A stretch of 64,000 nucleotides of DNA. Source: Carcharhinus amblyrhynchos. Its lineage: Eukaryota. The DNA is taken from contig OZ336875.1 in assembly GCA_965287045.1 (NCBI GenBank), positions 41,788,001 through 41,852,000 on the forward strand. The letters are read 5' to 3'. This document shows, piece after piece, positions 8,611 through 59,879 of this stretch. A model generated the notes under the pieces. The model made no database searches and had not been told where the DNA came from. It saw only the letters and a list, made by a program, of their open reading frames with translations. Within the stretch, counting starts at the first letter, position 1. Each line of letters begins with the position of its first letter. The position numbers were made by a program, and so were the translations under genes.

Positions 8611-8651
8611 ACCCAAGGGGCCCAGCTCAAAATGTCTGACACTGAAGAAGT
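8611..8651 (+). CDS. TNNT3: TNNT3 exon 2 (ATG at 8632; MSDTEEV)
   Basis: (T)n-gcag acceptor, AAAATGTCTGACACTGAAGAAGT, gtaagt donor. Confidence 0.93.
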
Positions 8652-11600
8652 GTAAGTATTTATTTGAAGTATTATTAGTCATAACTTTGGTTAACCAATG
8701 CTTGGGATGACTCAGTTAAAGTAGATGAGCACCATCTCAGTTTTGCATTTTAAAGTCATTAAACGAATCAATGTTGATGTGATGCTGGATTATTTTATCT
8801 GTGAGTAACCCCCTGTTCTTTTCTCTTCTTGCAGGTATGAAGGTAAATGACAGCATCATTTGGCTGACATGCAGAAATGGAGTGAATCCAATCTTTTTAC
8901 ACACACGTATTGTAATCCTTGTAATAATCTCTTGGTTGTGTAGCATGAGGATTCTATCACATTCTAATGTCTAGTTGTTCACAATTCTTCATTTTTTATC
9001 TTAAGTTTTGGCCAATATTATTGTGTAATATTTAAGATAATTTTGATTTCAACATAAACCCTTGTGGGTTAATTTGAAGTTATGGAGCATGCCAGCGCCA
9101 CACTGGTTCCAATAGTGAAGCAGCCAGAACTATTCTGAGACTGTCTTTACTTAAATAGAACCAGGGCCAATGGGGTATCCAGATTCAGCTCACTTTATCC
9201 AAATTGACTCAATGTCAAGTGCTCTGGGAGAAAGGTGATGGGAGTTGTAGCCCTAGTGGGTAGTGGCCCAGTTAATTTTGTGGAGATTGATGTAGTACCC
9301 TGTTCTTCCCATCCCATAGTTAATAACTTCAAACTTACCTTTCCAATGAATGGTTACAGGCACAGAAGGAGGCTATTTGGCTCCAGTTGTCCGTTCTGGC
9401 TCTCTGCAAGAGTTATTCAGTTAACACCCCTCCATATTGCCCATTTTTCCCCATATTGCCATTGGTTCTTTTGCCATTCACCTTAATCCAATATCCTCTG
9501 GTCCTTGATCTTTCTGTGTCGATCCCCCATGATTTTGGATGCTTCTATCCAATCTCCTCTCATCCTACTTAAAGGAGCCATGATGTGGAGATGCCGGCGT
9601 CGGACTGGGATGAGCACAGCAAGAAGTCTCACAACACCAAGTTAAAGTTCAACAAGTTTCTTTGGAATCACAAACTTTCAGAGCGCCACTCCTTCTCCCA
9701 ATGAAGGAGCAGCGCTCTGAAAGTCCATGATTCCAAATAAACCTGTTGATCTTTAACCCGGTGTTGTGAGACTTCTTACTACTCAAAGGAAAATGTTCCA
9801 GCTTCTCTAATCTATCCTTAAAACTGAAATTCTTCATCATTGGAACCTCAGAAATCTTCTCTGCACACTATCTGAAGCCTAAAATGTAATAACCAAATTT
9901 GGGTACAATATTCCAACTGAAGTCAAAGCAATGTTTTAGAAAGATTCATCATGACTTATTTGCTTTTATAATCTTACACTTCTTTTTATAAAGCTGAAGA
10001 TCACATATTCCTTTTGAATCACTTTCTCAACTTGTCCTGCCACTTGTGCAGATATACCTCTCAGTCTCTCAATTTCTACACTTTCTTTGTAATTATACCC
10101 ATTATTTTATATTGCCTTTTCCTCATTCTTCTGATTGAAATGTATCACTTTTCACTTCTCTGTATTAAATTTAACATGTCCATCCCTTCCACCAACCTAC
10201 CCGTAGCTTCCTGAAGTCAATCATTATCCTCTTCACAGATTGCAATACTTCAAAATCTTATGCCATTTGCAAATTTTGAGACTTGTGCACCCAAATTTAG
10301 CTCATTAATGTAGATCATTAATGTAGATCAAGGAAAGCTGATGCCCCTTCAGTATATTCTTCCAATCCAAAAAATGTACATTCATCATTACTTTCTGTTT
10401 CCTGTCACATCACATTTGTTCCCATCTATTCCATGGATTTCAACATATCAAATGCTTTAGGCAGCCCAAATACACCACATTACCCTCCACAACTCTATCT
10501 CTTACCTCGTCACAAAACTCAATTAAGTTAGTTAATCATGATTTGACTTTAAGAAATCTTTGCTGCACTAATCCACATTTACCCAAGAGACTGTTAATTT
10601 TGTCCTGGTTTATCATTTCTCAATGTCTTCCTACCAACCAATAATAAACTGAATGGCCTTGCTGAGTTTATCCTTTACCCATCTTTTTGAACAAGGGTGT
10701 AACACTTGCCATTCTCCAGTCCTCTGTCATTATCCTTGAACTATGGATGATTGGAAAATTATAGTCAGTCCCTCTGCAATTTACATCTGTACATCTTAGT
10801 ATCACTGGATATATTCCATCTGGTCCTGGTATTAGAAAGACTGGTTGCAATGTATAGTTTAAATTATAAAGATAGCAAAAATAATGGCAGAGGGTGTGGC
10901 AAGAATCCAGAGTGATGCTTTTATATTATTTACAATTGAATCACAATTTTTTGTTTTACAAAAATGTCAGTACTTAAAAATCAAACTTTTAATGAAACAA
11001 AATAGAAAACTGTTCAGGGAGCATAATGGTCAGCAGATTCAACCCACTTGTTTTATGTCCCTGCCATTGGTAAAGGTGCTGGTGTATTTCTTTATAGTAG
11101 GAAGTCTCACAACACCAGGTTAAAGTCCAACAGATTTATTTGGTAGCAAAAGCCACCAGCTTTTGGAGCACTGCTCCTTTGTCAGGTAAGTGGGAGTTCT
11201 GTTCACAAACAGGGCATATAAAGGCACAAAACTCAATTTACAAAGTAATGGTTGGAATGCGATCTTTACAGGTAATCAAGTCTTAAAGGTGCAGACAATG
11301 TGAGTGGAGAGAGGGTTAAGCACAGGTCAAAGAGATGTGTATTGTCTCCAGCCAGGACGGTTAGTGAGATCTTGCAAGTCCAGGCAAGGTGTGGGGGTTA
11401 CAGATAGTGTGACATGAACCCAGTTGAGGCTGTCCTCATATGTGCGGAACTTGGCTATCAGTCTCTGCTCAGTGACTCTGCGTTGTCCTGTGTTGTGAAG
11501 GCCACTTTGGAGAACGCTTACCTGAAGATCAGAGGCCAAATGCTCGTGACTGCTGAAGTGTTCCCCAACAGGAAGTGATCACTCTTGCCTGGTGAGCAGT

Positions 11601-14600
11601 GTTCATTCATCCATTGTCGTTGCATCTGCGTGGTCTCCCCAATGTACCATGCCTTGAGACATCCTTTCCTGCAGGGTATCGTGTAGATAACGTTGGCCGA
11701 GTTGCAAAAGTATGTACTGTGTACCTGGTGGATGGTGTTCTCATGTGAGATGATGACATCCATGTCGATGATCCGGCACGTCTTGCAGAGGTTGCTGTGG
11801 CAGGCTTGTGTGGTGTTGTGATCACTATTCTCCTGAAGGCTGGGTAGTTTGCTGCGGACAATGGTCTGTTTGAGGTTGTGCAGTTGTTTGAAGGCAAGAA
11901 GTGGGGGTATGGGAATGGCCTTGGCAAGATGTTTGTCTTCATCAATGACATGTTGAAGGCTCCAGAGAAGATGTCATAGCTTCTCTGCTCCAGGGAAGTA
12001 CTGGATGACGAAGGGTACTTTATCCACCATGTCCCGTGTTTGTCTTCTGAGGAGGTCAGTGCCGTTTTTCGCTGTGGTGCATTGGAACTGTTGATTGATG
12101 AGTCAAGTGCCATATCCTGTTCTTATGAGGGCATCTTTCAGTGTCGGGAGGTGTCTGTTGTGATCCTCCTCATCTGAGCAGATTCTGTGTATATGGAGGG
12201 CTTGTCCATAGGGGATGGTTTCTTTAATGTATTTAGGGTGGAAGCTGGAGAAGTGGAGCATTGTGAGATTATCTGTGGGCTTGTGGTACAGTGAGGTGCT
12301 GAGGTGACTGTCCTTAATGGAGATGTGTGTGTCCAAGAATGCAACCGATTCCAGAGAGTAGTCTATGGTGAGTCTGATAGTGGACCTTGACGATGTCATC
12401 ATATAGTTGTTCCAGTGATTGCTCACCATGAGTCCAAAGGAAAAAAATGTCATTGATGTATCTAGTGTATAGCATCAGCTGAAGGTCCTGTGCAGTGAAG
12501 AGGTCTTGTTTGAATATGTGCATGGAGATGTTGGCATATTGAAGTTCGAATTTGGTCCCTATGGCTGTTCCGTTTGTAAGGATGAAATACTGGTTGTTGA
12601 AGGTGAAGACATTGTGGTCCGGATGTAGTGGATGAGTTGTAAAATTGCATTGGGAAACTGGCAGTTGTCGGCATTGAGTACTGAGGCAGTTGCAGCAATG
12701 CCATTGTCGTGGGGGATGCTGGTGTAGAGTGCCAAGACATCCATTGTGACGAGGCGTGCTCCTGGTTCAACTGCTCCATATGTGCTGAGTTTCTGTAGTG
12801 TTGTGACAAAAGCTGGGGGTTCTTTGTACAATGGGTTTCAGGATGTCCTCAACATAGCTGGAGAGGTTCTCACACAGGATCCCATTGCCCGATACGATGG
12901 GACAGCCGGGTATGTTTGCCTTATGTATCTTCAGGAGTATTTCTTTATACCAGTTGACTGCTGTGTTGTCAATCAAGACTGTGGCATCAAATGAGTGATT
13001 ACAGTCATTGATTGTGTTGTGGTTGATAGAACTCCTTACCTTTTGATTGCCCACACTGTGCATCTGTATGCCTATGTGACTAATATTTGTGAACTATGGG
13101 AAGAATCAATACAATTTTTATTAAGTTGCTTAGTTGCAATGGCAAAGCTCTATATAAAAATCTTGTATCTTAAATAAATATTTGATTCAATTGTTCTTTA
13201 TATTCTAGTATGTAAATGTATCAATTTTTACATGTTGACATAGAGATGGCATCTATACGTATTTGAACTGCTTCAACAATTATTTCAAAGCACTCTTGTT
13301 CAGGGTTCTCTTAGTTTATATGTTTCCATTTATACTTTCAGAAATTCCTTTCCCAGTTTAATGTTGATTTATTTAATATTTTAGTCTATAATTATATTGA
13401 TTTGGAATTAATATAATTGTCAATTTTCCAAAAATACTTCTACATTTTTTTATTTTATAATTTTTATTAAACATATTGCAGTATTTTGTACAGCATTTCT
13501 CTGAGGTTGGAAGCATCAGTCGCTGAACTTCAACCTCAGTTTGGATCTGATGGTTGTTCTGTGAACCTGGTTGAAGTCTGCACATCTGCCATTATGATTA
13601 GAGAGATATTCTGGTTCATGGAAATTTTCTGTTTTCCCTTTCCCCTTTCCCTCTGCGATACTTTTTGAGTTGAGTTCTATTGGTCTGCACAAGTGGCGTC
13701 TTGTAGCTTGTTAGATATTGTTTTGTGGATTGGATGTCTAAAATCTAAGAATTGTTTTTTTTTAAAAATGGTCTCCCCCAGTTTTCTCTCTGTGTCAGAA
13801 AGTGTCAACTCCTTGCAATGATGTTTGAAGCCATTCTTCAACTCAAGCCTCGCCAGTGAGTGATAGCAGACTATTTGAACATATCTTTTTAACCAGACCC
13901 CGTGAGTACTGGCAGGCCTCTGGAACATTGCCTGAGTGGCCATTCTTCTTACTTGAACCTGAGTGGTGAGTGTTGGCAGGTCAGACAAAGCATCACAACC
14001 ATATCTAATCCTTTTTTGACTTGATTTTCCTATGTGTCCACTCTCAAGCTGAAGTCACTGAACGAGATTTCTGGATGATTCCTTTGCTCTGCCTACTTTA
14101 GGATGCTCTGGTCAATTGTGTCCCAAATTGTGCCCTAACTGAGAGCCATTAATTCACCCCAGAGTAGAGGTGAAAGCCTGGGCCTTCTAGTTAGAGCCAA
14201 TTGATTTCTTCAATTTACAGCTGGCTAATGGTTCAGGATTTTTCCTATGGATCCTGTGGTTGATATCCATGGTGAAGGCATTGTAAAGAATGAAGACTGA
14301 GTTTGCTGCAAATAATCACCATCTGTTATCTCTGGTGTTGGATTATAGAACATGAAGAACATGGAGAACATGAAGAGGGAGGTAATGATAATGATTCCCA
14401 ATTTCTCTTTGTATTGCCCCTGCCATCTTTTACTTATATATAACTTAACAATACAAAACAATTCCAGCACTCTTAATGTTGTAATATCATGAAGGGCAAG
14501 CATTTCAGCATTTTTTGAACTATGGCTGCACAGGGCTAATTTGTACTTCTGTACCTTGCCCAAGCAACCAAGGTATGTTGACAGATGATCTGACTTTGGA

Positions 14601-17600
14601 AGCATCACAGCAGAACCTAATCTTGTCCTCACCCAGCATCTACACATGGAGTTACAGCAGAGTATATCGATAGGGATCGTTAAGTGGGAAGTGATGTTTT
14701 TCCTATGCCTGGCTCAAAGCCATTGGGAACAACCGTAATGCTGCCACCAACATCCTGTCTGAATCCTGGCTGACTAAGCAAGGACTAAGGATTCAGCCTG
14801 GAGCCTTCCAGTAACATCTCACTTACCTACTGGGGTTTTCCCCTCGTTTTCTTTTATTGTTAGTCATTTCTTACCATACACCATCTGAGAAAATTTTGAT
14901 TTAAGTATTTCCCCTTACCTAGCTTAGCTCAGCGATGGAACTCATCCAAGGGCACAAACACTGCTCCTTACCAGTTTATAACATACACACATGATTACTA
15001 AATAACAACTGCAATGGAACTCACTTGGATCTTAATTGCTTGTTGAAAAAGTAGGTGTATGTTTTCACTGGGTGCCGAAAAGAACAAACAAATATGTGAC
15101 ATGATGTGCCAACTTTTAAATCAAATCACAGCATGAGTAGTACTGAGGGCTAGTAAGTGTCTAATATCTGCCTTCACCTAACATCAATAAAAATAATAGA
15201 TAACTTTTAAGAATAGGCTATTGGATAAATGTATTTACAATTTGATTTGGCTAACAAAAGAATGTGAAATTCTGATATATGCAATTGGTTAAAGTTTTTA
15301 AGTTTATATATTAGTGTCGCAAATGGCTTATGTTAACACTGTAATGAAGTTAGTGTGAAAATTCCCTAGTCACCACACTCTGGCACCTTTTGGGTACACT
15401 GAGGGAGAATTTAGCATGGCTAATGCACCCAACAAGCATGTCTTTCAGACTGTGAGAAGAAACTAGAGTATCCAGACGAAACCCACATGGGAGAATATGC
15501 AGACTCTGCACAGACAGTGACCTCAGCCAGGAATCAAACCTGAGTCCCTAGCATTGTGAGGCAGCAGTGCTAACCACTGTGCCGTTGTGTTAGTTAGGTG
15601 ATAGGTCAGCCTCACCCATATTAATTTCAAGAAGAAATGTTTACATTGGTTTCTTGGTATAAACTTAGCTCTGTGTGTTTAGGATGTCACCTGGACAAAG
15701 AAATTGGTTATAAAAGTGCAGTGTCAGAACAAATTAAACTTAAATATCTAACTACTTATAGAAAGTGTTTGCATATATCACGATTTCATGTTGATTTGAA
15801 TTTGGAAATGTAAATAAAATTGCAAATGAGTACTGAGTGAACTTGTAGCTCGAATGACATTTCAATTGTAAGCAAGTTTTGATGTCATGGAATTGATCTT
15901 AATTGTGGTAACAGTGAATTAAAATGTTTTTGATCTGTTAGAAAAGTTTGATCTTGAGCATGGTATGGACTTCTTTGTAGGTGCAATTATCAAAACCAAT
16001 TTTAAGTGGGTTCCATTCTACCTGTAATAATTCACAATCCTTATTCTTAAAAATCTGTCAACCCTACAAATCTCAGATTTCCAAAATCCATTTTGACATT
16101 TAATAATCACTACTTCCTCATTCATCCAACATTTTCTACTATTCTTTTCAACATTACTTGTGTCATTCAATGTGGACTTTTATCTTTCACGCTGTTCTCC
16201 TAAATCAAAGACAATGAAGGAAAAGGTTGTACTGTAACCTGACCAAGGATGGTGCAGACTAATGTGCACCTGATCAAATATCATTTCATGTGTCTACAAC
16301 GATGAACAGATTTTTTGGTTGAGAAATTTCTGCAATAAAAGGTTCAATGTTAATCTTAATATTAGTGAAAAGGGAAAATGTTCTGCATTCTTTAAAAAAT
16401 GCGATTTAGGGTGAGTTGATTGCCTTTAGCAAAGGGATAAGCCTGAAATGTCAGGAATTTAAGAGTGTTGGAATGATACTTGTGATTTTTTTGTTTGGGT
16501 TCATGTGTAACAAAGTTGTCCTTTATTTCAACTATCAGATGGTTTTTCTGCATGCTGAAGTGAATTGCGGTGAAAGTTGTATTAATGGTGTCAGGGTGTG
16601 ATGTTTTGTTCTTGTGCAGATTTTAAATTGTATACTGGTGTCTCCTGATGTAACTTATAACATATTGATGTCAATATTGTTCCTTTTCTGCTTTTCCACC
16701 TTGTGCTTTTCAATTGTCTGCACTGCTGCTTTTCTGCTTGCTGCATGCTAACGCCATCTTCAGAAGAAGGTATGTGGTATAAGTTAATTTTATCCCTACC
16801 TTTTCCTTATTCATTAATTTTTCCCTCACACTCCTTTGTCCTTTCCTTCGCCCTGAGCATTTCTTAGTTTTAGTTAGTTTTAGCATTTCTCTTTTTCCTT
16901 CTTTCTCCCTTATCTTTCCATTGCTCTGCTGTGCCCTGATTTTTTTCTTCATTCTACTGTTTAACCCTTATCTTGTTTTCTCTTGTTTACCTTTTCTCTT
17001 TCCATCATCGTTTCCTCTTGTATTGGTTTCCCTTTCTTCTCCAGCTTCATTTTCTTTTCTTTTCTTGTTTATTCTAGAATCCTGTATTTTCCTTTAATTG
17101 CAATGTTGTGAATCCTCTAGTTTTCCCAATAATTGCATATCCTCCCTGTTATAACTGTGTACGCTTCATTATCCCCAACACTTGTGTATCCTAGACTATC
17201 CCAAATATTCTATTTCCTTCATTATTACGATATTTCTGTATCCTCCATTTTCCCCTATAATTATGTATCCTACATTATCCCTAATAATTGTCTACTCTAC
17301 ACTATCCCCAATAATCCTGATTCCTACATTATCCCAATAATATCCTTCGTTATCCTCAATAATTTTGTTCATTATCCCTAATCATTCTACATCCCCCATT
17401 ACCAATTATTGTGCACCCTTCCATAGCTCTAATCCTTTTGCATCTATTCCTTCCTTTTCAGTTCGTATGTATTCTTCTTTCCCATTCAATTTCCATGGTT
17501 ATCCCCAAAAAGTGTATATCACTCATTACCCCAATCATCATGTGATATCTTGAAATTTCCCTTGTTATTATTACTACTTATAGAAATTCAGGAATTTTTA

Positions 17601-20600
17601 ATTGGGATAATTTGAGCAGCTTTTGATTGGGAGAGATATGATAAATACTTAACTATTGGGCTATTAATTGTTCTGAGGCTAGACAACCTTTGTGTTAAGT
17701 TAGTGATGCTGAAAAGTGACCCTTGTTGCTTTTTGTTAATTTATTGGTTCATTTTGATGTTGTTCTGTTTCTGGCATGTTCTTGTCTTTTGCTTTTCAAT
17801 GCTCAGTATTAAAACAAATTTTGCTTCTTTGTATTTGCTACTTGTTGTATGTACCTGGCATTTCCCAGAAGCGTACGCTGAAGAAGGTATGTCGCTGTCT
17901 GTTATTCCAAGTCACCTTTCCTGGAAACATTTTAGACCAGTTATATTTTGGAACTGTCAGACTCTCTGATAATGGGAATAGTTTTATCCCGCCCTGCTTG
18001 GTGAACACAGTTAAAGTAGCTGTGCAAAGACCTTCCCACTAAATACTATCTTAACTGGGCCCTTCATACATGTCTGAGATGTCTGCCTGATTCATTTGGG
18101 ATATCATTAGTGACTTTCTTCCTCTTCCCGTACCTCGTGGTGCACAAAGGCAAACTTTTGTCTGTTTCCACAGCAAATTATTCCTGCGATAGGTCACTCA
18201 CTAATTTATTGTCAGCGGCTTATAGCTTGAGAGGTGCCACTCTGCATCAATCCTGGCTGACCAGTTGTCTCTCCATTCCTACTCCCTGCCATTGGCACGT
18301 TGAAATGATTTTGCAGGCTGAAACTCAACTTGTTTGTCCGCGTTTTGAGCGCACTTTCCATAGCTCTCAGATCCTGGGCTTGGACTCGAACCCTGAGCTT
18401 CTAGCTCAGAGGTAGCGATACTATTCACTGTGTCCCAAGACCTCATCATTACTGATATCTAGAATATTATTTGGGCTCAATAGCTTATTGAGCAGGGTGC
18501 TCATGTGAACCACCTGTTCTTCAAAATGTGGAAGGAAAGTGAAGGAACAAGTCCTCTAATTCGAGTGGCCATCTGGAGGAGAAGGGCTGGCGCGATTCAA
18601 AAGATGTGAATCAGCTGGATGGATTAAAATGGAAAGGAGAATTTACTACTGTGGACAAACGTTTTCCTACAAAATATAACCCAAATTCGCGCTGACATCT
18701 CTTTGCCAAGTCCAAATCAAAATGGAAGGGGTTTTGGAAAAGATATGCATAGGTCATAACTGGAGTTGTGATGTTGCATGGGAACATAGAAACAGGAGTG
18801 GATTATCGTTAAGGCAGTCACTGTACTCGCACCTACCTTCTTCAAACCCTGGAATGGGAACCATGTGGCCCTGGTTACCGTCACTTTTTTCATGCCATTC
18901 ATTTATCCATTACTGTTATCTTGTTTCTGCTAATGTTGCTTCAATTCTTTGCCTGATTCAATGGGTTTCCTTGGGATATCTAAAATGCTGACCTCTTTCT
19001 CTAAGTGCAAAAGTAAGCCAATTATTCAACATGCCAGATATTTCCTTATTACCCTTACTGATGATTGTGTCAACATTATCAGTTTTTAAGAGGCCAACAT
19101 TGCTTCTGAGCACCCTTTTCTCCCCCTGATTGTAATTGTGAGTTGTTTTATGTTAATTTGTTTTCATCCTCCCTTTTTGTGGCTTTGTAGTCCCTTATTG
19201 TTCTTTGTATCTCTCCCAGCTGCCAGGGTCTGTGTTTTATATCCTCTTTCTTTTAATTTTTGTGTTGATTCTTACCTCTTTAGTTGTCCCTAGCTGCTTA
19301 TTTGGCAAGCAGAAACACTTGTCTTTTAGAAGTATAGACTGTTCTGTATCACAAATTCATTACTTAACACCTCTCACCAACCTTCTACTTAACCCATTTA
19401 CACATTTGCCCCTTTTGTTGCGAAGCATTTCTGCCTCATTTCATTGAAGTCAGCCTTACCTAAAATCTAGAGTCTTAATAGCTATTCCCTTCAAACTCAG
19501 TTTGGATCTGATGGTTGTTCTGTGAACCTGATTAAAGTCTGCACATCTGCCATTATGATTAGAGAGATATTCTGGTTCATGGAAATTTTCTGTTTTCCCT
19601 TTCCCCTTTCCCTCTGCGATACTTTTTGAGTTGAGTTCTATTGGTCTGCACAAGTGGCGTCTTGTAGCTTGTTAGATATTGTTTTGTGGATTGGATGTCT
19701 AAAATCTAAGAATTGTTTTTTTTTAAAAATGGTCTCCCCCAGTTTTCTCTCTGTGTCAGGAAGTGTCAACTCCTTGCAATGATGTTTGAAGCCATTCTTC
19801 AACTCAAGCCTTGCCAGTGAGTGATAGCAGACTATTTGAACATATCTTTTTAACCAGACCCCGTGAGTACTGGCAGGCCTCTGGAACATTGCCTGAGTGG
19901 CCATTCTTCTTACTTGAACCTGAGTGGTGAGTGTTGGCAGGTCAGACAAAGCATCACAACCATATCTAATCCTTTTTTGACTTGATTTTCCTATGTGTCC
20001 ACTCTCGAGCTGAAGTCACTGAACGAGATTTCTGGATGATTCCTTTGCTCTGCCTACTTTAGGATGCTCTGGTCAATTGTGTCCCAAATTGTGCCCTAAC
20101 TGAGAGCCATTAATTCACCCCAGAGTAGAGGTGAAAGCCTGGGCCTTCTAGTTAGAGCCAATTGATTTCTTCAATTTACAGCTGGCTAATGGTTCAGGAT
20201 TTTTCCTATGGATCCTGTGGTTGATATCCATGGTGAAGGCAGTGTAAAGAATGAAGACTGAGTTTGCTGCAAATAATCACCATCTGTTATCTCTGGTGTT
20301 GGATTATAGAACATGAAGAACATGGAGAACATGAAGAGGGAGGTAATGATAATGATTCCCAATTTCTCTTTGTATTGCCCCTGCCATCTTTTACTTATAT
20401 ATAACTTAACAATACAAACAATTCCAGCACTCTTAATGTTGTAATATCATGAAGGGCAAGCATTTCAGCATTTTTTGAACTATGGCTGCACAGGGCTAAT
20501 TTGTACTTCTGTACCTTGCCCAAGCAACCAAGGTATGTTGACAGATGATCTGACTTTGGAAGCATCACAGCAGAACCTAATCTTGTCCTCACCCAGCATC

Positions 20601-23600
20601 TACACATGGAGTTACAGCAGAGTATATCGATAGGGATCGTTAAGTGGGAAGTGATGTTTTTCCTATGCCTGGCTCAAAGCCATTGGGAACAACCGTAATG
20701 CTGCCACCAACATCCTGTCTGAATCCTGGCTGACTAAGCAAGGACTAAGGATTCAGCCTGGAGCCTTCCAGTAACATCTCACTTACCTACTGGGGTTTTC
20801 CCCTCGTTTTCTTTTATTGTTAGTCATTTCTTACCATACACCATCTGAGAAAATTTTGATTTAAGTATTTCCCCTTACCTAGCTTAGCTCAGCGATGGAA
20901 CTCATCCAAGGGCACAAACACTGCTCCTTACCAGTTTATAACACACACACATGATTACTAAATAACAACTGCAATGGAACTCACTTGGATCTTAATTGCT
21001 TGTTGAAAAAGTAGGTGTATGTTTTCACTGGGTGCAGAAAAGAACAAACAAATATGTGACATGATGTGCCAACTTTTAAATCAAATCACAGCATGAGTAG
21101 TACTGAGGGCTAGTAAGTGTCTAATATCTGCCTTCACCTAACATCAATAAAAATAATAGATAACTTTTAAGAATAGGCTATTGGATAAATGTATTTACAA
21201 TTTGATTTGGCTAACAAAAGAATGTGAAATTCTGATATATGCAATTGGTTAAAGTTTTTAAGTTTATATATTAGTGTCGCAAATGGCTTATGTTAACACT
21301 GTAATGAAGTTAGTGTGAAAATTCCCTAGTCACCACACTCTGGCACCTTTTGGGTACACTGAGGGAGAATTTAGCATGGCTAATGCACCCAACAAGCATG
21401 TCTTTCAGACTGTGAGAAGAAACTAGAGTATCCAGACGAAACCCACATGGGAGAATATGCAGACTCTGCACAGACAGTGACCTCAGCCAGGAATCAAACC
21501 TGAGTCCCTAGCATTGTGAGGCAGCAGTGCTAACCACTGTGCCGTTGTGTTAGTTAGGTGATAGGTCAGCCTCACCCATATTAATTTCAAGAAGAAATGT
21601 TTACATTGGTTTCTTGGTATAAACTTAGCTCTGTGTGTTTAGGATGTCACCTGGACAAAGAAATTGGTTATAAAAGTGCAGTGTCAGAACAAATTAAACT
21701 TAAATATCTAACTACTTATAGAAAGTGTTTGCATATATCACGATTTCATGTTGATTTGAATTTGGAAATGTAAATAAAATTGCAAATGAGTACTGAGTGA
21801 ATTTGTAGCTCGAATGACATTTCAATTGTAAGCAAGTTTTGATGTCATGGAATTGATCTTAATTGTGGTAACAGTGAATTAAAATGTTTTTGATCTGTTA
21901 GAAAAGTTTGATCTTCAGCATGGTATGGACTTCTTTGTAGGTGCAATTATCAAAACCAATTTTAAGTGGGTTCCATTCTACCTGTAATAATTCACAATCC
22001 TTATTCTTAAAAATCTGTCAACCCTACAAATCTCAGATTTCCAAAATCCATTTTGACATTTAATAATCACTACTTCCTCATTCATCCAACATTTTCTACT
22101 ATTCTTTTCAACATTACTTGTGTCATTCAATGTGGACTTTTATCTTTCACGCTGTTCTCCTAAATCAAAGACAATGAAGAAAAAGGTTGTACTGTAACCT
22201 GACCAAGGATGGTGCAGACTAATGTGCACCTGATCAAATATCATTTCATGTGTCTACAACGATGAACAGATTTTTTGGTTGAGAAATTTCTGCAATAAAA
22301 GGTTCAATGTTAATCTTAATATTAGTGAAAAGGGAAAATGTTCTGCATTCTTTAAAAAATGCGATTTAGGGTGAGTTGATTGCCTTTAGCAAAGGGATAA
22401 GCCTGAAATGTCAGGAATTTAAGAGTGTTGGAATGATACTTGTGATTTTTTTGATTGGGTTCATGTGTAACAAGGTTGTCCTTTATTTCAACTATCAGAT
22501 GGTTTTTCTGCATGCTGAAGTGAATTGCGGTGAAAGTTGTATTAATGGTGTCAGGGTGTGATGTTTTGTTCTTGTGCAGATTTTAAATTGTATACTGGTG
22601 TCTCCTGATATAACTTATAACATATTGATGTCAATATTGTTCCTTTTCTGCTTTTCCACCTTGTGCTTTTCAATTGTCTGCACTGCTGCTTTTCTGCTTG
22701 CTGCATGCTAATGCCATCTTCAGAAGAAGGTATGTGGTATAAGCTAATTTTATCCCTACCTTTTCCTTATTCATTAATTTTTCCCTCCCACTCCTTTGTC
22801 CTTTCCTTCACCCTGAGCATTTCTTAGTTTTAGTTAGTTTTAGCATTTCTCTTTTTCCTTCTTTCTCCCTTATCTTTCCACTGCTCTGCTGTGCCCTGAT
22901 TTTTTTCTTCATTCTACTGTTTAACCCTTATCTTGTTTTCTCTTGTTTACCTTTTCTCTTTCCATCATCGTTTCCTCTTGTATTGGTTTCCCTTTCTTCT
23001 CCAGCTTCATTTTCTTTTCTTGTTTATTCTAGAATCCTGTATTTTCCTTTAATTGCAATGTTGTGAATCCTCTAGTTTTCCCAATAATTACATATCCTCC
23101 CTGTTATAACTGTGTACGCTTCATTATCCCCAACACTTGTGTATCCTAGACTATCCCAAATATTCTGTTTCCTTCATTATTACAATATTTCTGTATCCTC
23201 CATTTTCCCCTATAATTATGTATCCTACATTATCCCTAATAATTGTCTACTCTACACTATCCCCAATAATCCTGATTCCTACATTATCCCAATAATATCC
23301 TTCGTTATCCTCAATAATTTTGTTCATTATCCCTAATCATTCTACATCCCCCATTACCAATTATTGTGCACCCTTCCATAGCTCTAATCCTTTTGCATCT
23401 ATTCCTTCCTTTTCAGTTCGTATGTATTCTTCTTTCCCATTCAATTTCCATGGTTATCCCCAAAAAGTGTATATCACTCATTACCCCAATCATCATGTGA
23501 TGTCTTGAAATTTCCCTTGTTATTATTACTACTTATAGAAATTCAGGAATTTTTAATTGGGATAATTTGAGCAGCTTTTGATTGGGAGAGATATGATAAA

Positions 23601-26600
23601 TACTTAACTATTGGGCTATTAATTGTTCTGAGGCTAGACAACCTTTGTGTTAAGTTAGTGATGCTGAAAAGTGACCCTTGTTGCTTTTTGTTAATTTATT
23701 GGTTCATTTTGATGTTGTTCTGTTTCTGGCATGTTCTTGTCTTTTGCTTTTCAATGCTCAGTATTAAAACAAATTTTGCTTCTTTGTATTTGCTACTTGT
23801 TGTATGTACCTGGCATTTCCCAGAAGCGTACGCTGAAGAAGGTATGTCGCTGTCTGTTATTCCAAGTCACCTTTCCTGGAAACATTTTAGACCAGTTACA
23901 TTTTGGAACTGTCAGACTCTCTGATAATGGGAATAGTTTTATCCCGCCCTGCTTGGTGAACACAGTTAAAGTAGCTGTGCAAAGACCTTCCCACTAAATA
24001 CTATCTTAACTGGGCCCTTCATACATGTCTGAGATGTCTGCCTGATTCATTTGGGATATCATTAGTGACTTTCTTCCTCTTCCCGTACCTCGTGGTGCAC
24101 AAAGGCAAACTTTTGTCTGTTTCCACAGCAAATTATTCCTGCGATAGGTCACTCACTAATTTATTGTCAGCGGCTTATAGCTTGAGAGGTGCCACTCTGC
24201 ATCAATCCTGGCTGACCAGTTGTCTCTCCATTCCTACTCCCTGCCATTGGCACGTTGAAATGATTTTGCAGGCTGAAACTCAACTTGTTTGTCCGCGTTT
24301 TGAGCGCACTTTCCATAGCTCTCAGATCCTGGGCTTGGACTCGAACCCTGAGCTTCTAGCTCAGAGGTAGCGATACTATTCACTGCGTCCCAAGACCTCA
24401 TCATTACTGATATCTAGAATATTATTTGGGCTCAATAGCTTATTGAGCAGGATGCTCATGTGAACCACCTGTTCTTCAAAATGTGGAAGGAAAGTGAAGG
24501 AACAAGTCCTCTAATTCGAGTGGCCATCTGGAGGAGAAGGGCTGGCGCGATTCAAAAGATGTGAATCAGCTGGATGGATTAAAATGGAAAGGAGAATTTA
24601 CTACTGTGGACAAACGTTTTCCTACAAAATATAACCCAAATTCGCGCTGACATCTCTTTGCCAAGTCCAAATCAAAATGGAAGGGGTTTTGGAAAAGATA
24701 TGCATAGGTCATAACTGGAGTTGTGATGTTGCATGGGAACATAGAAACAGGAGTGGATTATCGTTAAGGCAGTCACTGTACTCGCACCTACCTTCTTCAA
24801 ACCCTGGAATGGGAACCATGTGGCCCTGGTTACCGTCACTTTTTTCATGCCATTCATTTATCCATTACTGTTATCTTGTTTCTGCTAATGTTGCTTCAAT
24901 TCTTTGCCTGATTCAATGGGTTTCCTTGGGATATCTAAAATGCTGACCTCTTTCTCTAAGTGCAAAAGTAAGCCAATTATTCAACATGCCAGATATTTCC
25001 TTATTACCCTTACTGATGATTGTGTCAACATTATCAGTTTTTAAGAGGCCAACATTGCTTCTGAGCACCCTTTTCTCCCCCTGATTGTAATTGTGAGTTG
25101 TTTTATGTTAATTTGTTTTCATCCTCCCTTTTTGTGGCTTTGTAGTCCCTTATTGTTCTTTGTATCTCTCCCAGCTGCCAGGGTCTGTGTTTTATATCCT
25201 CTTTCTTTTAATTTTTGTGTTGATTCTTACCTCTTTAGTTGTCCCTAGCTGCTTATTTGGCAAGCAGAAACACTTGTCTTTTAGAAGTATAGACTGTTCT
25301 GTATCACAAATTCATTACTGAACACCTCTCACCAACCTTCTACTTAACCCATTTACACATTTGCCCCTTTTGTTGCGAAGCATTTCTGCCTCATTTCATT
25401 GAAGTCAGCCTTACCTAAAATCTAGAGTCTTAATAGCTATTCCCTTTCAAACACCATGTTGAACTCTGTCACATTAGGTAAATGCTTATGCATTTTTAGG
25501 GGTGTTAACTAAACCTATCTCATTACTTAATCTAATTTGCTCCCTTGTTGGTTCTTGGGCATGCATTGCAGAACACACTCAAGAAATTCATCACCTTTCT
25601 GACATATCTGCCTATCCCAATTGATATGAGAGTTACAATCCTCCATTAAAACCACTCTACCATTGCTAGACACTTGTCTATTCTCAGTGTTTATACAAGG
25701 CACCATAAACACCTTGTGCCAGGAGACGTATGCACAACTCTCACAAGTCTTAAATCTTTTTTTATTTCTTATTTCTACCCATAAAGTCTCCACCTCCCAT
25801 TATATACTCTGAAAGTGGACTGTCCAATGTGAAAAATAAGACCAGTGACAACCAAAAAAATCTGTTGGTTTGGTTTATATTCTAAACAGCAATCTTTTGT
25901 TGTTTTGAGTAAAAGACATATTATTAAATCTACAATTCATGATGTTGGTCATATCAAAACCTAATATAATTGTTTGAGTGTGAATGTTATACGTTATGTT
26001 ACCTTCTATATGTTTTGCCACCATCCAATATTTATGATACAGCTGAAGATTTGTCAGTGGCTTAGTATTTGTTCACGGACAGTTTATTAAACATAGCTTT
26101 GAATGCTACGTAACCCGGCTTCATATTTATGATGATGGATGAAGAATGTTTGAACACTGACAAAGGACAAATATGGAGACTGTTTATCCCTGTTGGTGTG
26201 AAAGATTTTTATTCCTGACGTTCAGGAATATAAGGGTGATTGAATGATATCTATCATGTTTTTATTTTGGGTTCATGTCTGTCGAAGTGCGCTTTGTTGT
26301 AACAATTAATTGGTGTATGTTACCTAAGTAAGTTTGGAGTGAATGTATGTGAAGGAGGAGACTTTTGCTTCTGTGTATATTTCTCTTTATTCTTATACTA
26401 GTTTTTACTGCTAACAAATATAAGTAAAAGTCAATATTGTTCCTTTTATGCTTTTCTGTCTTGTCCCTTTCAATCCCTGCATTGCTTCTTTTCTGCTTGC
26501 TGTACATTAACACCATTTTCAGAAGAGATTGCTGAAGAAGGTATGTAATGCAATATCCATTTACGCTCCCTTTTTTTTCTTTTTTCCTCTTATTGTCCTT

Positions 26601-29600
26601 TTAGTTTCCTTCATTTTTATTTTCCCTCTTGTTTTTCCTTTTATCCTTATATTTTGTCATTTCATTTTCTTCTTCATTCCCCCTTTCCTTTTCATCGAAT
26701 GTTATGTTCTGATCCTTTTTTTATTTCAGTCCTCTGTTTTACCTTCATTCTCTTTTTCTCTCATTTGCTTTTTTTCTCTTCTAATTTTCATTTGCATGTT
26801 ACTGTTTTTCCCTTGTTTTATTACCTCCTCATGTTCATTTACTTATCCTCAATCATTCCACTTCATTATCAATTCCAATGATGTCGTATCCTTCATTTTG
26901 CCCATTATTTTGCATTAATCATCCCAATCATTCTGTATCCATCATAGTTCCTAATTATTCTGTGTTCATCTGCATCCTCAATGCTTATGTATCACCCATC
27001 ATCACCATTTATTAGTGAGATATTATAATTTCCTTCATTACTCCTTAGTTTCTGTTTCTATTAGATAAAATTTAATCAGCTTTTGATAACATGAGTGATG
27101 GAGGCATTGCCAATATGTAATTATAGGGCTATTAATTGTTCTGGGAATAGCTAAACTAAGTTGGTAATCTATGCTGAAAAGGTAACCCTCTTGCATTTAG
27201 TTTAATGATTTGTTAGTTCTTCTTGGGGCAGCCCTGCGTCTGCTGCATTGACATCTTTTGCTCTTCAACGCTTAGTATTAACATGTATTTTGCTTCTTTG
27301 TATTTGCTGCTCACTGCATGTACCTGACTTCTCCCAGAAGTGCACCATGAAGAAGGTATGTTGCTCTTTGCTGTTTTTTATAAATCATGCATGGGATTCC
27401 AAGTTATTTCAAATCTCTTTTTCAGGGAATGCTTTGGACAAGTTATATTGTCCCTTTCCAGCCAGTGTGTAGCTAATATTGCTGTGCAAAGAATTTCCAC
27501 CTATTACCACTTGATTCTGCTTGCTACCTCTTAACTGAGGCCTTGTAGAGGTTGCCAAGGTGCATGTTTGACTCAGGAGGGTACCACATTTAATTAGATC
27601 CTTATCTTGGCATTCAAATTCAGATTGCATTTTAATGGCCTATTGCATATCTGCTCATCTTGATTATCCTGCTCAATAAAACCTGTTGGGGAAGAAGTGC
27701 CTTTAGTTTTGTTTTGTGTAATTTTACATTTTAAACCATATTTTTTGGGTGTTTCATCGAAGGATGTGTCATTTAATCTACAATTCATTTACTTGATCAT
27801 CTTCAAAACACAATGTATGTCCTGACCGTGAAAGTTCTACATTTATATGTCACCCTCTGTATATTATGTCATCAACTAATAATTGTGACACAATAGAAGA
27901 CTTGTGGATAGAGTTTGCTCATGGATAGTCCATAGACACAACTGTGTCTGGCACATATCCTAATTTCATATTTATGGTTAGGGAATGGATAATTGAGAGC
28001 ATTAGCTAAGAATTAAAGAAAGAAATATGCTATGAATCTGTTATTCTGAGTAATTTTATGTGCATCTAGAAACATTTAATTTTATTTACATATAGCTATA
28101 AAGTAATGCATATAAATGAACACATGAGGTTAGAATTAGCCTTGATTATGCCAAAACCATAACCTAAGCAGAGGATTGAATCCATGTTGGCAGTCAAGGT
28201 GTAGTTAGCTATACTCACGTTGTTGATTCTCACCGAGCGCAATCACTGCTCAATTTAATACAATTCCACGTGTGATTCTGGACTCCAAGTAATTGTCCGA
28301 ATAGGGCCAGGTGATGTACGACAGAGGGTTTTAATTGTTAGCAAGATGGTCAAATGAGTGTCAAGCAGCCTGCAAAATAGGCCCCATCTGACAGAGTTGG
28401 TTCAGTTTAATCCTGAGAAAGAAGTCAGAGCACAAACACATCTGACTGAAATCAGGCTTTGATACACATCAAACTATTCTGACCTCCAATCAATAGTGCA
28501 AGCAAGGTGTTCCATATCCTGAGTGAATCTTTAGCGCAGAATGAATCAGTGCAAGCCCACAGTCAGTCTACAAATTTCACTAAGTCGAATAACGATCCTG
28601 AACACATTGACTTAATCTTGTTTTACTCTGTTGTGTTTTTTTCATTGCAATGGACAGTTTATGGAAACGAAGATGAAGACGGTATTTTTGCTTTATCACC
28701 AACATAAATTTACCCCACTGAATTCTAACTGTTTTCTCCTTCCCCCTAATTCTCTGGGGTTAATTCTTCTAAACGTGTGGCTTGAGGTGATCCAGTAGCA
28801 GTCTATATATAACACATTATATAGCTGCGAGATTCAGCTAGTACTTCGACTAACAGATTTCAATTTCGTGTTCACTACATGTACTATGACCTGATTATTT
28901 TTGGTTTAATTCACAGTGCTGGTTGCTAAAATATTAATGTTTTGTCTGTTACACTGTCAGTTTCATAATCGTGTCTTCATTTCATAATTCAACTTAATTT
29001 CTTGGAGGATTAGTGTGTGTGCTTTGGCTGATAACATTGGTAGCATAATGTGCCAAATTAGAAAGTGGTGTAAATATGAGTTGGGTGACATGGCTGGACT
29101 GTGAGAGTATTAACAAGAGGTCCTGACTCGAAGCTGTGCATCAGCTTCTCTGCTGCAGAAAGGTCAGGCTAAAATGGATGCAAAGGTTATAAATTGGGTG
29201 AGGATAGTGTGACAGATTTAATCTTCACACTGCCCACTCCCGCAAAACAACTTTTTTTTTCAAAAGACTGGCAAAATTCTAAAATGGAAGCGTTAATTTT
29301 CAAACTGTTGAAAATCATGCAGGATTTTGTATCACCCCCTTTAACTGTTTTTTTAAAATCACATTTTGTTACCTGATTTCCTCTAAAGGGAAATGCAACA
29401 TTTAATGAATCAGAAGTGGGGACAATCTAAGGCTATAAGTACCTTGATTGGCTTTAATGGCACTGTGATCTGTCACTGAGGAGAGCAATTGCATTGTGTT
29501 TATATGTGTGGCGCCACTTTTTCGGAAATAACCCCACACATTGGTGAATCAATAGATCAGTTGGCCTCGTTCGCTGGCATTCACTCAGTGGTATGCTGAT

Positions 29601-32600: not shown

Positions 32601-35600
32601 GGATTCCATGTATGGCTTTACCAATGTCATGTACAACTTCAACTAGACATCCCAACTCCTGTATTCAATGTTCTGACCGATGAAACCAAGCATGCTGAAT
32701 GCCTTCTTCATCACTCTGTCCATCTGTGACTTCACTTTCAAGAAGGTGTTTACACGATGTTCTTTGTTCTGTAACTCTCCCCAATGTCCTACCATTAACT
32801 GAGTAAGTCCTGCCCTGGTTCAATTCACTGATAAATGATCACATAGGAATAATGCACATTTGAATGAGATACTGAACAATGACCACCACCTGTAGAACCG
32901 TTCCTAACATGGAGTCAACACCTTCAGGGAAAAAAAAAATTTAACCTGTAATGTGGCAGATTGTACTTTTTTTTCCAGAAAAAAAAGCTACAATATTTTG
33001 ATGTCATTTATGTGGTACTTTGTCTTTAATTTTGTATGAAATGGCTAATTTCATTTTTATTTTTTGTTTTGTTTTGTTTTACTACAGAGGAGGAAAAGCC
33101 AAGGATGAAGTGAGTAGCGATTTGAAGATTTATTTAACACAGGAACACTTCTAAAATGTTAATTCGCCAAAGGCTTTCATCAGCTCCATTGCTTTGTTTG
33201 GCTCTGGGACTCCAGTCATAACTCGCTGAGGAGCAGAATATTAATTGAGCCTGGGTTTTATCATTTTTCCTCTGCTCCTTTTTCTTTCCCAATAGGAGAA
33301 AGCAAAGAGAAACTCACCTGCAGGTGGTGTTGTCCTAGCACCTAAATTGTTTTGCAAAACTATAAAATGCATTGTTTTGCACTCCTGTCTAATTCTATGG
33401 AGAAACTTCTGGCTACAAATGCAACCATTGTGGGACTGGAATGTTAGAAGTTGAATATTCTGTACTGCAGCAGATTAGTAGATGACGGAGAGTGATCCAT
33501 GTATAAATTGCTGTTCAGATTTGGCAATCCCAGTAAAAGGTTAGTGGAACAATGATACTGTAATGGGCAGGAGGATAGGTAATCAGAGGATGCAGATTTA
33601 AGACGATTGCCCCATATAGGAGGCAGATGAGTAAACATTTTTATGTGGCCAGTTAAGATCCGTGTGAGAGGGTGGTGGAAGCGTACTCTTACTCAAAATG
33701 AAAACATTTACAAGGTGATGGAGAAAGAACAGAATAAATTGGGTAGGAATTTCAAAGGGCCAGTACAGGCACAATGGGGGGAATGGATGCTGCATCATTC
33801 CCTTGTTTTTGTACGATACAATCCAAAAGAAGACAATGTGAGTGTAAAATTTGCTCCTATAAGCAATCAGTTTCAGTGTTTCCAGTTTCTGTCTATGGAT
33901 TCTGCTCTTAGAGCTAAGCTCCCAGCCTGACTATGGGATGAATAGAGATAGAGGCTAGATTATTTGCACCATTCTCAAAAGTTGCAGGTTGCAGATAGAA
34001 TGACAAAATTGTAGCTCTAATTTGACAGCCCACATTGCCATCAAATGCAGTTTTTTTTTGGCATTTAGGGTCATGGCATTACCCTGTGATCTGTATGGGA
34101 ATGTATATTTAAAAAAGCTGACTGAATAAATAATGTAATCTGTATACGTTATTGCAAATCTTGCAGAGCTTGCAAACTTTCTATCCATATACCTTGCTTT
34201 CCATTGATAGAAAAACATGCCAAAAACATTGTGACAACATGTATCATTGTTCATTGCTATGTCAATATTTTCAACTTGTGCAACATGGTATCCCTGATGA
34301 TAAATATTGTTCTTTTCCTGTCCATGCCTTTCCAAGTTGTGTCTTGTTCCCCATTTCTTTTTTTTCATGAATTCCCATCTACTTCCCTCCAGCTTTTCCT
34401 CTGTGCATCTCTTTTTCTCTCACCTTCACTGTCTTTCTATTTCTCTCCTTTTCTGCCTGTCTCTCCTGTTCTGTCATGTTTTTCTCTTTTGACTCCCTCA
34501 TCATGTGTGCTATTTTCTAAATTTTCTGTTCCCCTCCCTGACCTTTCTTTCTGTGTGTCTGTGTGTGTGTTTCTCTATTCCTAATTTCCTTCTCATTCTT
34601 CTTCCCATGTGGTTCTCTCCTTCCCTTCTGCCTGCCTTATCCTTCTGTATTTACCCCCTTTCGATCCATTTGTCCCACCTCTGTTCTATCCTGGTTCTTT
34701 CCCTCTCCTCCACTTCCATTTCTGTCTTTCTATTGCTTTTTTTCTGCCCATGTGTTTCTTCTTCCCTTCTTGTCCCTTATTTCTTTGTCATCCATCTTTT
34801 GTTTGTTGCATTCTCTCTGTTGCTGTTCTCTAACTTGTGTTCCTTTCTCTTGTCATTTGTAGATATCTCTTTCTAAGTTGTTTGTCCAGGGTAATTCAGG
34901 GATCCCATTCTCTCTAATTTGAACTTTTGTTCAAAGGAACTAACCCTAATTCTCTGATGCATGTTTCCATTGAGTGTGACTCAATGCTTGGAGGGCAAGA
35001 GGTGCTAAATTTTATCCATTCTTCTACTTTGCTGTATTCACTTTCCCTTTTTGTTACCTTCCCCTGGTCAGCTTGCCATGGGAAGATTGGGGAATGAGAG
35101 GGAAGTGAGCAGTCTAGACAACTGACACGGGTCATGAGAGTTTATTGGGGTTACCACGCTACTATGGGGAACAGGAAAGAGCTGACCAGGATCATTACAA
35201 CAGTGCAAGGTGCAACAAGAGCTTTTAAGTAGTGGTGATGATAGTCCGTTGTGGCAACTGTGGAAAAAGAATGGCCCTGGAAAGGACAGTGTAATGGGTG
35301 GATAATCCACCAATATATCCACCAATGTTTAGAGTGAAAATTGCTGCAGTGTCTTTAACTGAAAAAAAATTGTGGAGGCGGATACGTGATGCAGAGCAGT
35401 AGAGATAGCGATTAGGGTATTGAAATTGAAAATGTTTCATTTCCCAGAGTGCACACAGCCTTCATCAGAGTGAAGAAGCAATTCACAGAGAAAGCTCCAA
35501 AAACTATCACAACCTGTTTACAGTTCTAGCTGTCATTAATTCTTGTTCCATTATTACAGAATGTCTGCTCCCAAAATCCCAGAGGGAGAGAAAGTTGACT

Positions 35601-59030: not shown

Positions 59031-59552
59031 ACCTAGGTGAAAATGAATGTTTTTTTCCTGAATAACTATTTTTGGTTCTAAAATCCTAAAAGAAGCAATT
59101 AAATGGGGGAAGCTGATCAATACCACGACAGAGTGAGGCAGCACACGTGAGGCATTGGCAGCAACTACCTTTTGTTTATTTGTTCATGGGGCTTGGGCAT
59201 CTCAGCATTCATTGCCCATCCGTAACAAACTAAGCTTTCATGAATTAGCCACATTCAAATTTCACCTTTTGACAAGGTGGGATTGTGAAACCATTCCCCA
59301 AAGCATTACTCCGGATTACTAGCCCAGTGACAATACCACCATGCCACTGCCTCTCTCATTTCAGATGTGGTCGTTTCCTTTTGTAATTGTTTTAACTTAA
59401 CTCGGTTAACATATTATCCCTCTGAAAATAAAATAAATCAACGGGGTGAAGCGGTGGGGACTGTGGGCGAGAAGTGAATAAAAGTTGGAATAATGAGCTT
59501 GAGTCACGAATGCAGGACGCCTGGGTCAAAACAAGCAACTCCGGCGGACGAA

Positions 59553-59878
59553 TTTGGGCGGTGCACCAGGTGGCGGGGCAGGGTTTGGCCGGTGCACCAG
59601 GTGGCGGGGAAGGGTTTGGCCGGTGCACCAGGTGGCGGGGAAGGGTTTGGCCGGTGCACCAGGTGGCGGGGAAGGGTTTGGCCGGTGCACCAGGTGGCGG
59701 GGAACTGTTTGGGCGGTGCACCGTTTGGCGGGGAAGTATTTGGGGGGTGCACCATATGGCGGGGAAGTGTTTGGGCGGTGCACCAGGTGGCGGGGAAGTG
59801 TTTGGGCGGTGCACCAGGTGGCGGGGAAGTGTTTGGGCGGTGCACCAGGTGGCGGGGAAGTGTTTGGGCGGTGCACCA
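59553..59878 (+). repeat. 31-bp GC-rich minisatellite, ~10.5 copies, core GCACCAGGTGGCG (CTCF-like)
   Basis: GTGCACC recurs exactly every 31 nt from 59561 to 59871. Confidence 0.95.
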
Positions 59879-59879
59879 T

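What the first reader, a model, noticed from the sequence alone, without database searches (positions are those of the whole stretch)
13535..28681. Expanding microexon array building the acidic N-terminus of shark fast troponin T
Seen: seven symmetric phase-1 cassette exons (6, 18, 6, 18, 18, 18, 24 nt: [36 protein letters not shown]). Six end in AAGAAG|gtatgt and sit in three paralogous A+B units. Known: the TNNT3 N-terminal variable region tunes Ca2+ sensitivity via alternatively spliced miniexons, and birds expanded P/Tx exons. Inference: this lineage independently generates new microexons by repeated tandem duplication of an intron-exon-intron cassette, giving up to 2^7 exon combinations that act as a charge dial.
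Basis: partly seen in the sequence, partly recalled or inferred. Interest (0 to 1): 0.85.

Follow-up and report, generated by a model that had tools for sequence, protein, structure and literature searches.

The report
Doubled histidine exon in shark troponin
A recent 6-kb tandem duplication in this shark's fast-muscle troponin T gene doubled a small histidine-rich exon, which close relatives splice in twice; this likely echoes the metal-binding tail of chicken breast muscle, whereas the other tiny exons are old and shared with rays.

Summary
The seven phase-1 microexons are real, and the gene is TNNT3. Only one event is lineage-specific: a 5.96-kb tandem duplication of H+A+B (99.4% identical). 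It is not an assembly artefact: DNA depth is 2.1x in a possible source run and 2.5x in an independent, ~0.7%-diverged relative, against 1.05x in a ~6%-diverged shark. The A/B/C exons and the older A+B pairing occur in catshark, skate, electric ray and sawshark proteins, so they predate the lineage. RNA contigs from two close relatives (one study) join exon 3-H-H at about 1:1 depth and skip A1 and B1; in one of them the contig lengths fit H-H-exon 9. The visible product of the duplication is therefore a doubled His exon (3 to 6 His), not a 2^7 charge dial. A/B acceptors carry YGCY clusters, consistent with MBNL-type silencing (inferred). White and basking shark models show 5-6 His units, paralleling avian P/Tx exons. 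Metal binding and function are untested. This is a new instance of a known mechanism, of moderate interest.

The parts
8611..8651 (+). TNNT3 exon 2 (ATG at 8632; MSDTEE)
   Evidence: spliced to exon 3 in RNA contigs
8835..8842 (+). exon 3, 8 nt, ends in phase 1
   Evidence: RNA loose ends show exon 2-exon 3-H
13528..19496 (+). copy 1 of the 5.96-kb tandem duplication (H+A+B)
   Evidence: single copy in organism G
14349..14381 (+).
   Evidence: in RNA contigs
16644..16763 (+). YGCY cluster upstream of A1 (8 motifs; same in A2); candidate MBNL-type silencer
   Evidence: function inferred
16764..16769 (+). A1: 6-nt cassette (EE); likely an 18-nt A exon shortened by 12 nt
   Evidence: its own splicing not shown
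17869..17886 (+). B1: 18-nt cassette (EAYAEE)
   Evidence: same peptide in the electric-ray model
19489..19496 (+). duplication junction with about 7-8 nt of microhomology, no N
   Evidence: DNA contigs of two studies start or stop here
19489..25452 (+). copy 2 of the duplication (28 substitutions, 3 indels against copy 1)
   Evidence: depth ratios 2.14 and 2.50
20310..20342 (+). H2: identical copy of H
   Evidence: H-H junction contigs
22724..22729 (+). A2: 6-nt cassette (EE)
23824..23841 (+). B2: 18-nt cassette (EAYAEE)
26523..26540 (+). A3: 18-nt cassette (EEIAEE), old paralog of A1
   Evidence: same peptide in catshark
27338..27355 (+). B3: 18-nt cassette (EVHHEE), old paralog of B1; exon and upstream intron conserved in sharks and rays
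28658..28681 (+). C: 24-nt cassette (VYGNEDED) with a weak donor
   Evidence: VYGNEEED in catshark models
33088..33109 (+). exon 9 (EEEKPRM), end of the variable region
45641..45681 (+). alternative 41-nt C-terminal exon (one of the TNNT3 16/17 pair)
46906..46946 (+). the other 41-nt C-terminal exon of the pair

Best explanation
[quoted passage not shown] Shown: nine phase-1 cassettes; a real, clade-restricted duplication; an exon 3-H-H junction at about 1:1 depth. Inferred: the duplication arose by microhomology-mediated repair or unequal exchange; because every cassette is 3n and phase 1-1, the copy stays in frame and carries its own splicing signals; H lacks upstream YGCY clusters and is included, while A and B carry them and are probably repressed by MBNL in mature muscle and used in developing muscle. 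The predicted dominant protein has 19 acidic residues and 6 His before the conserved core (13 and 3 with one H), plus a new HExxxH motif at the H-H junction. This would shift tropomyosin affinity, and pH or Zn2+ responsiveness, modestly, as the avian Tx segment does (untested).
For: Duplication real: contig depth inside versus outside is 27.3/12.8 = 2.14 in run X1 (may be the source, not independent) and 21.7/8.7 = 2.50 in run X8 (another study, 62 differences in 8724 flank bases); both runs break contigs at the duplication ends. Absent in organism G (about 5.7% diverged): ratio 1.05 and one contig crosses 13528 unbroken. Transitions outnumber transversions 21 to 7; clean junction. RNA: X5 and X6 hold spliced exon 2-3-H contigs (depth 49.1, 48.5) and H-H contigs (43.6, 45.1); X6's shared 36-nt piece has depth 103.3. 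Of 9 simulated transcript sets, only H-H-exon 9 reproduces X6's pieces (36 nt at 2x, 57 nt at 1x, no others), and only 'second H differs at base 29' gives X5's 63-nt piece at 1x. The H-H junction does not exist contiguously in the window. Array ancestral: including 5 of 5 unnamed skate-like proteins from ~1.1-1.2-kb sequencing-run contigs with different exon combinations. YGCY in about 120 nt upstream: A1 8, B1 4, A3 5, B3 6 against shuffle means 1.3-2.6 (p <0.001, 0.05, 0.004, 0.03); none of the other 12 distinct acceptors reached p<0.1. Upstream MBNL binding generally favours skipping (PMC4176163 passages).
Against: No RNA from the window's own organism was identified; the H-H evidence is from two relatives in one study, tissue unknown, contigs not reads. 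RNA run X17 (organism H) had similar bin depth at H, A1 and B1 (8.6, 7.5, 7.3), which may mean co-inclusion of H, A and B in some tissue; the pieces were not displayed. The B-exon YGCY enrichment is marginal and uncorrected for multiple tests, and A/B acceptors are paralogs, so not independent. Shark and ray isoform lists are mostly predicted models whose RNA support I did not see. No binding or contractile data exist here.
Confidence: 0.75

Rival explanations
1. One reading: the lineage built the array by repeated duplication and uses the seven acidic microexons combinatorially as a charge dial.
For: All cassettes are 3n, phase 1-1, with intact sites; catshark and skate models show many combinations; possible H/A/B co-cover in X17.
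Against: A/B/C-type exons exist in rays and distant sharks; only one duplication is clade-specific; the dominant RNA contigs join H to H across A1 and B1. In mouse and chicken only 13 and 11 N-terminal variants are detectably expressed (PMC11016001 passage).
Confidence: 0.1
2. The duplication is real but nearly neutral: an in-frame copy tolerated in a disordered, non-binding region, with no selected His or metal function.
For: The N-terminal variable region binds no known myofilament protein and is hypervariable (PMC5062619 passages); organism G does with one copy; the copies are too young (0.47% apart) to show selection. This rival disputes the functional step only and is compatible with the anatomy and splicing described.
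Against: Both H copies are intact and spliced in at about 1:1 in two organisms; His units also expanded in white and basking shark and in galliform birds, which suggests a recurrent bias.
Confidence: 0.4
3. The 99.4% duplication is an assembly artefact (two haplotypes placed in tandem).
For: 0.47% divergence is of the size that alleles could show (own knowledge).
Against: Depth ratios 2.14 and 2.50 in two studies, contig breaks at both ends, no N at the junction, and H-H spliced contigs in two further organisms.
Confidence: 0.02

Closest known systems
Mammalian TNNT3 alternative exons 4-8 and fetal exon
   Same: Same gene and position (between exons 3 and 9), small same-phase alternative exons, acidic peptides, 16/17 pair present (PMC2447309 abstract; PMC5062619 passage).
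   Different: Nine cassettes here, three of them exact recent copies; one-to-one orthology with exons 4-8 was not tested.
Avian P exons / Tx segment of galliform breast-muscle fast TnT
   Same: Repeated His/Glu units in the TNNT3 variable region, built from small repeated exons and spliced in together (PMC11016001 passages and part 2 of section 11; PMC7581897 passages).
   Different: Unit is 11 residues with His spaced by 3, not a 5-residue HExxH unit; two copies, not seven; made by one 6-kb three-exon duplication; metal binding untested. The reviews call P exons avian-specific.
White and basking shark TNNT3 His-rich repeats (database models)
   Same: Same position after exon 3; white shark isoforms step by 8 residues (238-278 aa) as separate cassettes would.
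   Different: 5-6 eight-residue units with HExxH motifs (3 and 6); likely an independent expansion, since catshark, skate, sevengill-type and organism G have one H. Their genomic structure was not seen.

Membership tests
TNNT3 (fast skeletal troponin T) | closest named relatives are TNNT3 | tested here: met
   All named troponin hits among the best 120 are fast/type 3; shark hits 90-97% over the exon 11 query. No tree with TNNT1/2/4 was built.
TNNT3 (fast skeletal troponin T) | [quoted passage not shown] | tested here: met
   Two 41-nt exons at 45641-45681 and 46906-46946, each matching a different shark isoform.
TNNT3 (fast skeletal troponin T) | synteny with fast troponin I and an LSP1/caldesmon-family gene | tested here: met
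   A TnI exon closest to fast TnI chains about 414 kb upstream and a caldesmon-family gene between, all on the same strand of C6 (PMC9825255 passages).
TNNT3 N-terminal alternative microexons | 3n length, same phase, between exons 3 and 9 | tested here: met
   All 512 combinations of nine cassettes are stop-free.
TNNT3 N-terminal alternative microexons | actually spliced alternatively | tested here: inconclusive
   H included and A1/B1 skipped in relatives; A/B-type use shown only in other elasmobranchs; the 6-nt A exons were never seen spliced.
TNNT3 N-terminal alternative microexons | developmental regulation (MBNL-type) | not testable with these tools
   Only motif enrichment; no staged RNA.
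Avian P exon / Tx segment | 4-7 tandem HExxH pentapeptides | tested here: not met
   0 HExxH and 1 HExxxH in the two-H form. White and basking shark models have 3 and 6 HExxH.
Avian P exon / Tx segment | high-affinity transition-metal binding | not testable with these tools
   Needs a binding assay.
Avian P exon / Tx segment | adult, fast-glycolytic-muscle-specific inclusion | tested here: inconclusive
   H-H is dominant in two RNA runs of unknown tissue and stage.
Avian P exon / Tx segment | common origin with avian P exons | not tested
   Different unit length and patchy distribution suggest convergence (inference).

The most novel reading that the evidence does not exclude
Sharks have evolved a Tx-like, His-rich metal- or pH-sensing tail on fast troponin T at least twice by duplicating one His exon (two copies in this clade, caught soon after the event; five to six in white and basking sharks), convergently with galliform birds, whose P exons are described as avian-specific. 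The duplicated cassette brings its own splicing code, so only the His exon is amplified in mature muscle. One-, two- and six-unit natural variants would make the open question of what Tx does directly testable.
Probability: 0.3. Interest if true: 0.65.

Novelty: new member of a known kind. Interest (0 to 1): 0.4.

Why it matters
The function of the hypervariable TnT N-terminus, and of the avian Tx segment in particular, is described as unresolved (PMC11016001, PMC7581897 passages). This locus gives a young duplication with a known ancestral state (one H in organism G), derived state (two H) and a larger parallel expansion in two other sharks, so dose effects of His units can be compared in one protein background. 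It also shows how a multi-exon cassette duplication can change only one exon's output. These exons are often mis-annotated: several shark and ray models read through the intron or start downstream.

Tried and rejected
Assembly artefact: rejected. A generic polypyrimidine-based scan found only 1 of the 7 exons, because their acceptors score weakly; a composition-based scan found 6 of 7 plus both H copies and missed C for its weak donor. In X11 (organism G) bin depth was 32706 at H against 46.6 at B1 and 5.2 at A1 over about 9.5 intronic background; contig depth cannot rank parts of a gene, so this is not counted. X5's 60-nt contig at exon 11 differs at 3 bases and in its loose end and may be another paralog. 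Gene conversion between the copies: paralog divergence 28/5960 is below ortholog divergence 62/8724, but Fisher p = 0.068, so not established. A search for short N-terminal fragments found nothing (9 candidates, none scored). A search of the own genome with the A3-B3 stretch found only the window's copies. One search used exon 3 shifted by one base; its peptide counts were redone, whose values are used. Earlier scan findings: none. Seven literature searches listed no paper on shark TNNT3 variable exons; subscription journals are not covered, and no supplements were read.
Full report
Gene. The window holds a complete fast troponin T gene on the + strand, from the ATG at 8632 to the last exon at 51993. 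The named hits of an exon-11 search are fast/type 3 troponin T. Both alternative 41-nt C-terminal exons are present. A troponin I exon closest to fast TnI and a caldesmon-family gene lie upstream on the same strand, as expected for the TNNI2-LSP1-TNNT3 locus (PMC9825255, passages seen).

Observation. The list misses a 33-nt exon encoding [11 protein letters not shown] at 14349-14381, with an identical copy at 20310-20342. The 6-nt A exon aligns as an 18-nt A exon that lost 12 nt.

Two ages of duplication. 13528-19496 and 19489-25452 are 99.4% identical (28 substitutions, 21 of them transitions; 3 indels), with a short microhomology at a junction free of N. The A3-B3 unit is 64-72% identical to A-B, and A and B acceptors resemble each other more weakly.

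The recent duplication is real and clade-restricted. Laid on one copy plus the flank, contigs of DNA run X1 (possibly the source) give a length-weighted depth ratio of 2.14, and those of X8 (another study; 62 differences in 8724 flank bases) 2.50. Both break at the duplication ends. In organism G, about 5.7% diverged, one contig crosses the left breakpoint and the ratio is 1.05. I laid 8 of the 24 runs listed. No date in years is given, because no rate was measured.

The rest of the array is old. Catshark models contain H, EEIAEE, DANAEE, EEVVQE, EVHHEE and VYGNEEED; the electric-ray model has EEFAEE, EAYAEE and EVHHEE; thorny skate and sawshark have equivalents. Five of five unnamed skate-like proteins from ~1.1-1.2-kb sequencing-run contigs carry these exons in different combinations. 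Several shark and ray models read through the intron before EVHHEE, and that read-through matches the window's intron at 14 of 18 codons, so the upstream intron is conserved too. The A-B-A'-B' layout therefore predates the shark-ray split (inference from distribution; exact orthology of A3 is unresolved).

What is spliced. Runs X5 and X6 (organisms A and B, one study, tissue unknown) hold spliced exon 2-exon 3-H contigs at depth 49.1 and 48.5 and contigs in which H follows H at 43.6 and 45.1; X6's shared 36-nt piece is at 103.3. This junction skips A1 and B1 and is not contiguous in the DNA. Simulated contig graphs for 9 transcript sets show that only H-H-exon 9 gives X6's 36 nt at 2x and 57 nt at 1x without further pieces; exits to A3, B3 or C give 37/56 or 35/58; three H give 3x/2x. 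X5's 63-nt piece at 1x fits a second H that differs at base 29, a synonymous position (inference). Against a simple picture, X17 had similar bin depth at H, A1 and B1, an undisplayed hint of co-inclusion in some tissue.

Mechanism. A and B acceptors have 4-8 YGCY motifs in about 120 nt against shuffle means of 1.3-2.6; H, C and the other acceptors do not. MBNL binds YGCY, and upstream binding generally favours skipping (PMC4176163, passages). In mammals the acidic N-terminal exons decline towards adulthood (PMC11016001, passages). The likely reading is that the duplicated block carried one included exon and two repressed ones. The predicted main product goes from 13 to 19 acidic residues and from 3 to 6 His, with one new HExxxH motif. 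The N-terminal region binds no known filament protein but modulates tropomyosin affinity at a distance (PMC5062619, passages). A functional effect is inferred, not shown, and neutrality remains a serious rival.

Comparison. Human TNNT3 has same-phase alternative exons 4-8 and a fetal exon (PMC2447309, abstract only). Galliform birds add seven P exons encoding the metal-binding Tx repeats. One review notes a putative zinc-binding motif in a few cartilaginous-fish isoforms, without exon analysis. The two-H form fails the Tx motif test but may work like a short Tx. White shark models have six 8-residue His units, with isoforms stepping by 8 residues, and a partial basking shark model has five; these are closer to Tx and probably a separate expansion. 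Seven searches of the held library listed no paper on these shark exons.

Verdict. A real feature and a new, well-supported instance of a known way of building troponin T variable regions. Interest 0.4.

Noticed in passing
window 11084-12936: A 1.85-kb degraded element on the - strand with a 13-bp flanking direct repeat, absent in organism G; weak GIY-YIG hit (E 0.009, below cut-off), so possibly Penelope-like (label recalled)..
   Followed up: partly
P0147, P0125, P0142 (white and basking shark models): Five to six tandem 8-residue His-rich units in the TNNT3 N-terminus, up to 22 His, resembling avian Tx.
   Followed up: partly
window 14349-14381: H is built from 9-nt repeats; unit number differs among elasmobranchs (7-11 residues), so it also grows by internal slippage.
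   Followed up: partly
window 16764, 17869, 26523, 27338: A and B exons begin with a tandem acceptor (CAG AAG); catshark isoforms differ by one Glu at such a site, adding single-residue variants.
   Followed up: no
window 25874-26147 vs 27723-27993: 67%-identical intronic pair upstream of A3 and upstream of C, a possible remnant of another old duplication.
   Followed up: no
window 8835-10830, 12937-13160 in run X11: Intronic RNA contigs at depth 115-699 downstream of exon 3 in organism G, probably unspliced or partly spliced precursor.
   Followed up: no
window 59546-59879: Tandem repeat of about 62-nt period downstream of the gene.
   Followed up: no
P0025, P0090, P0102, P0145, P0150, P0152: Several public shark and ray TNNT3 models are mis-spliced at these microexons or join both 16/17 exons out of frame.
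   Followed up: no
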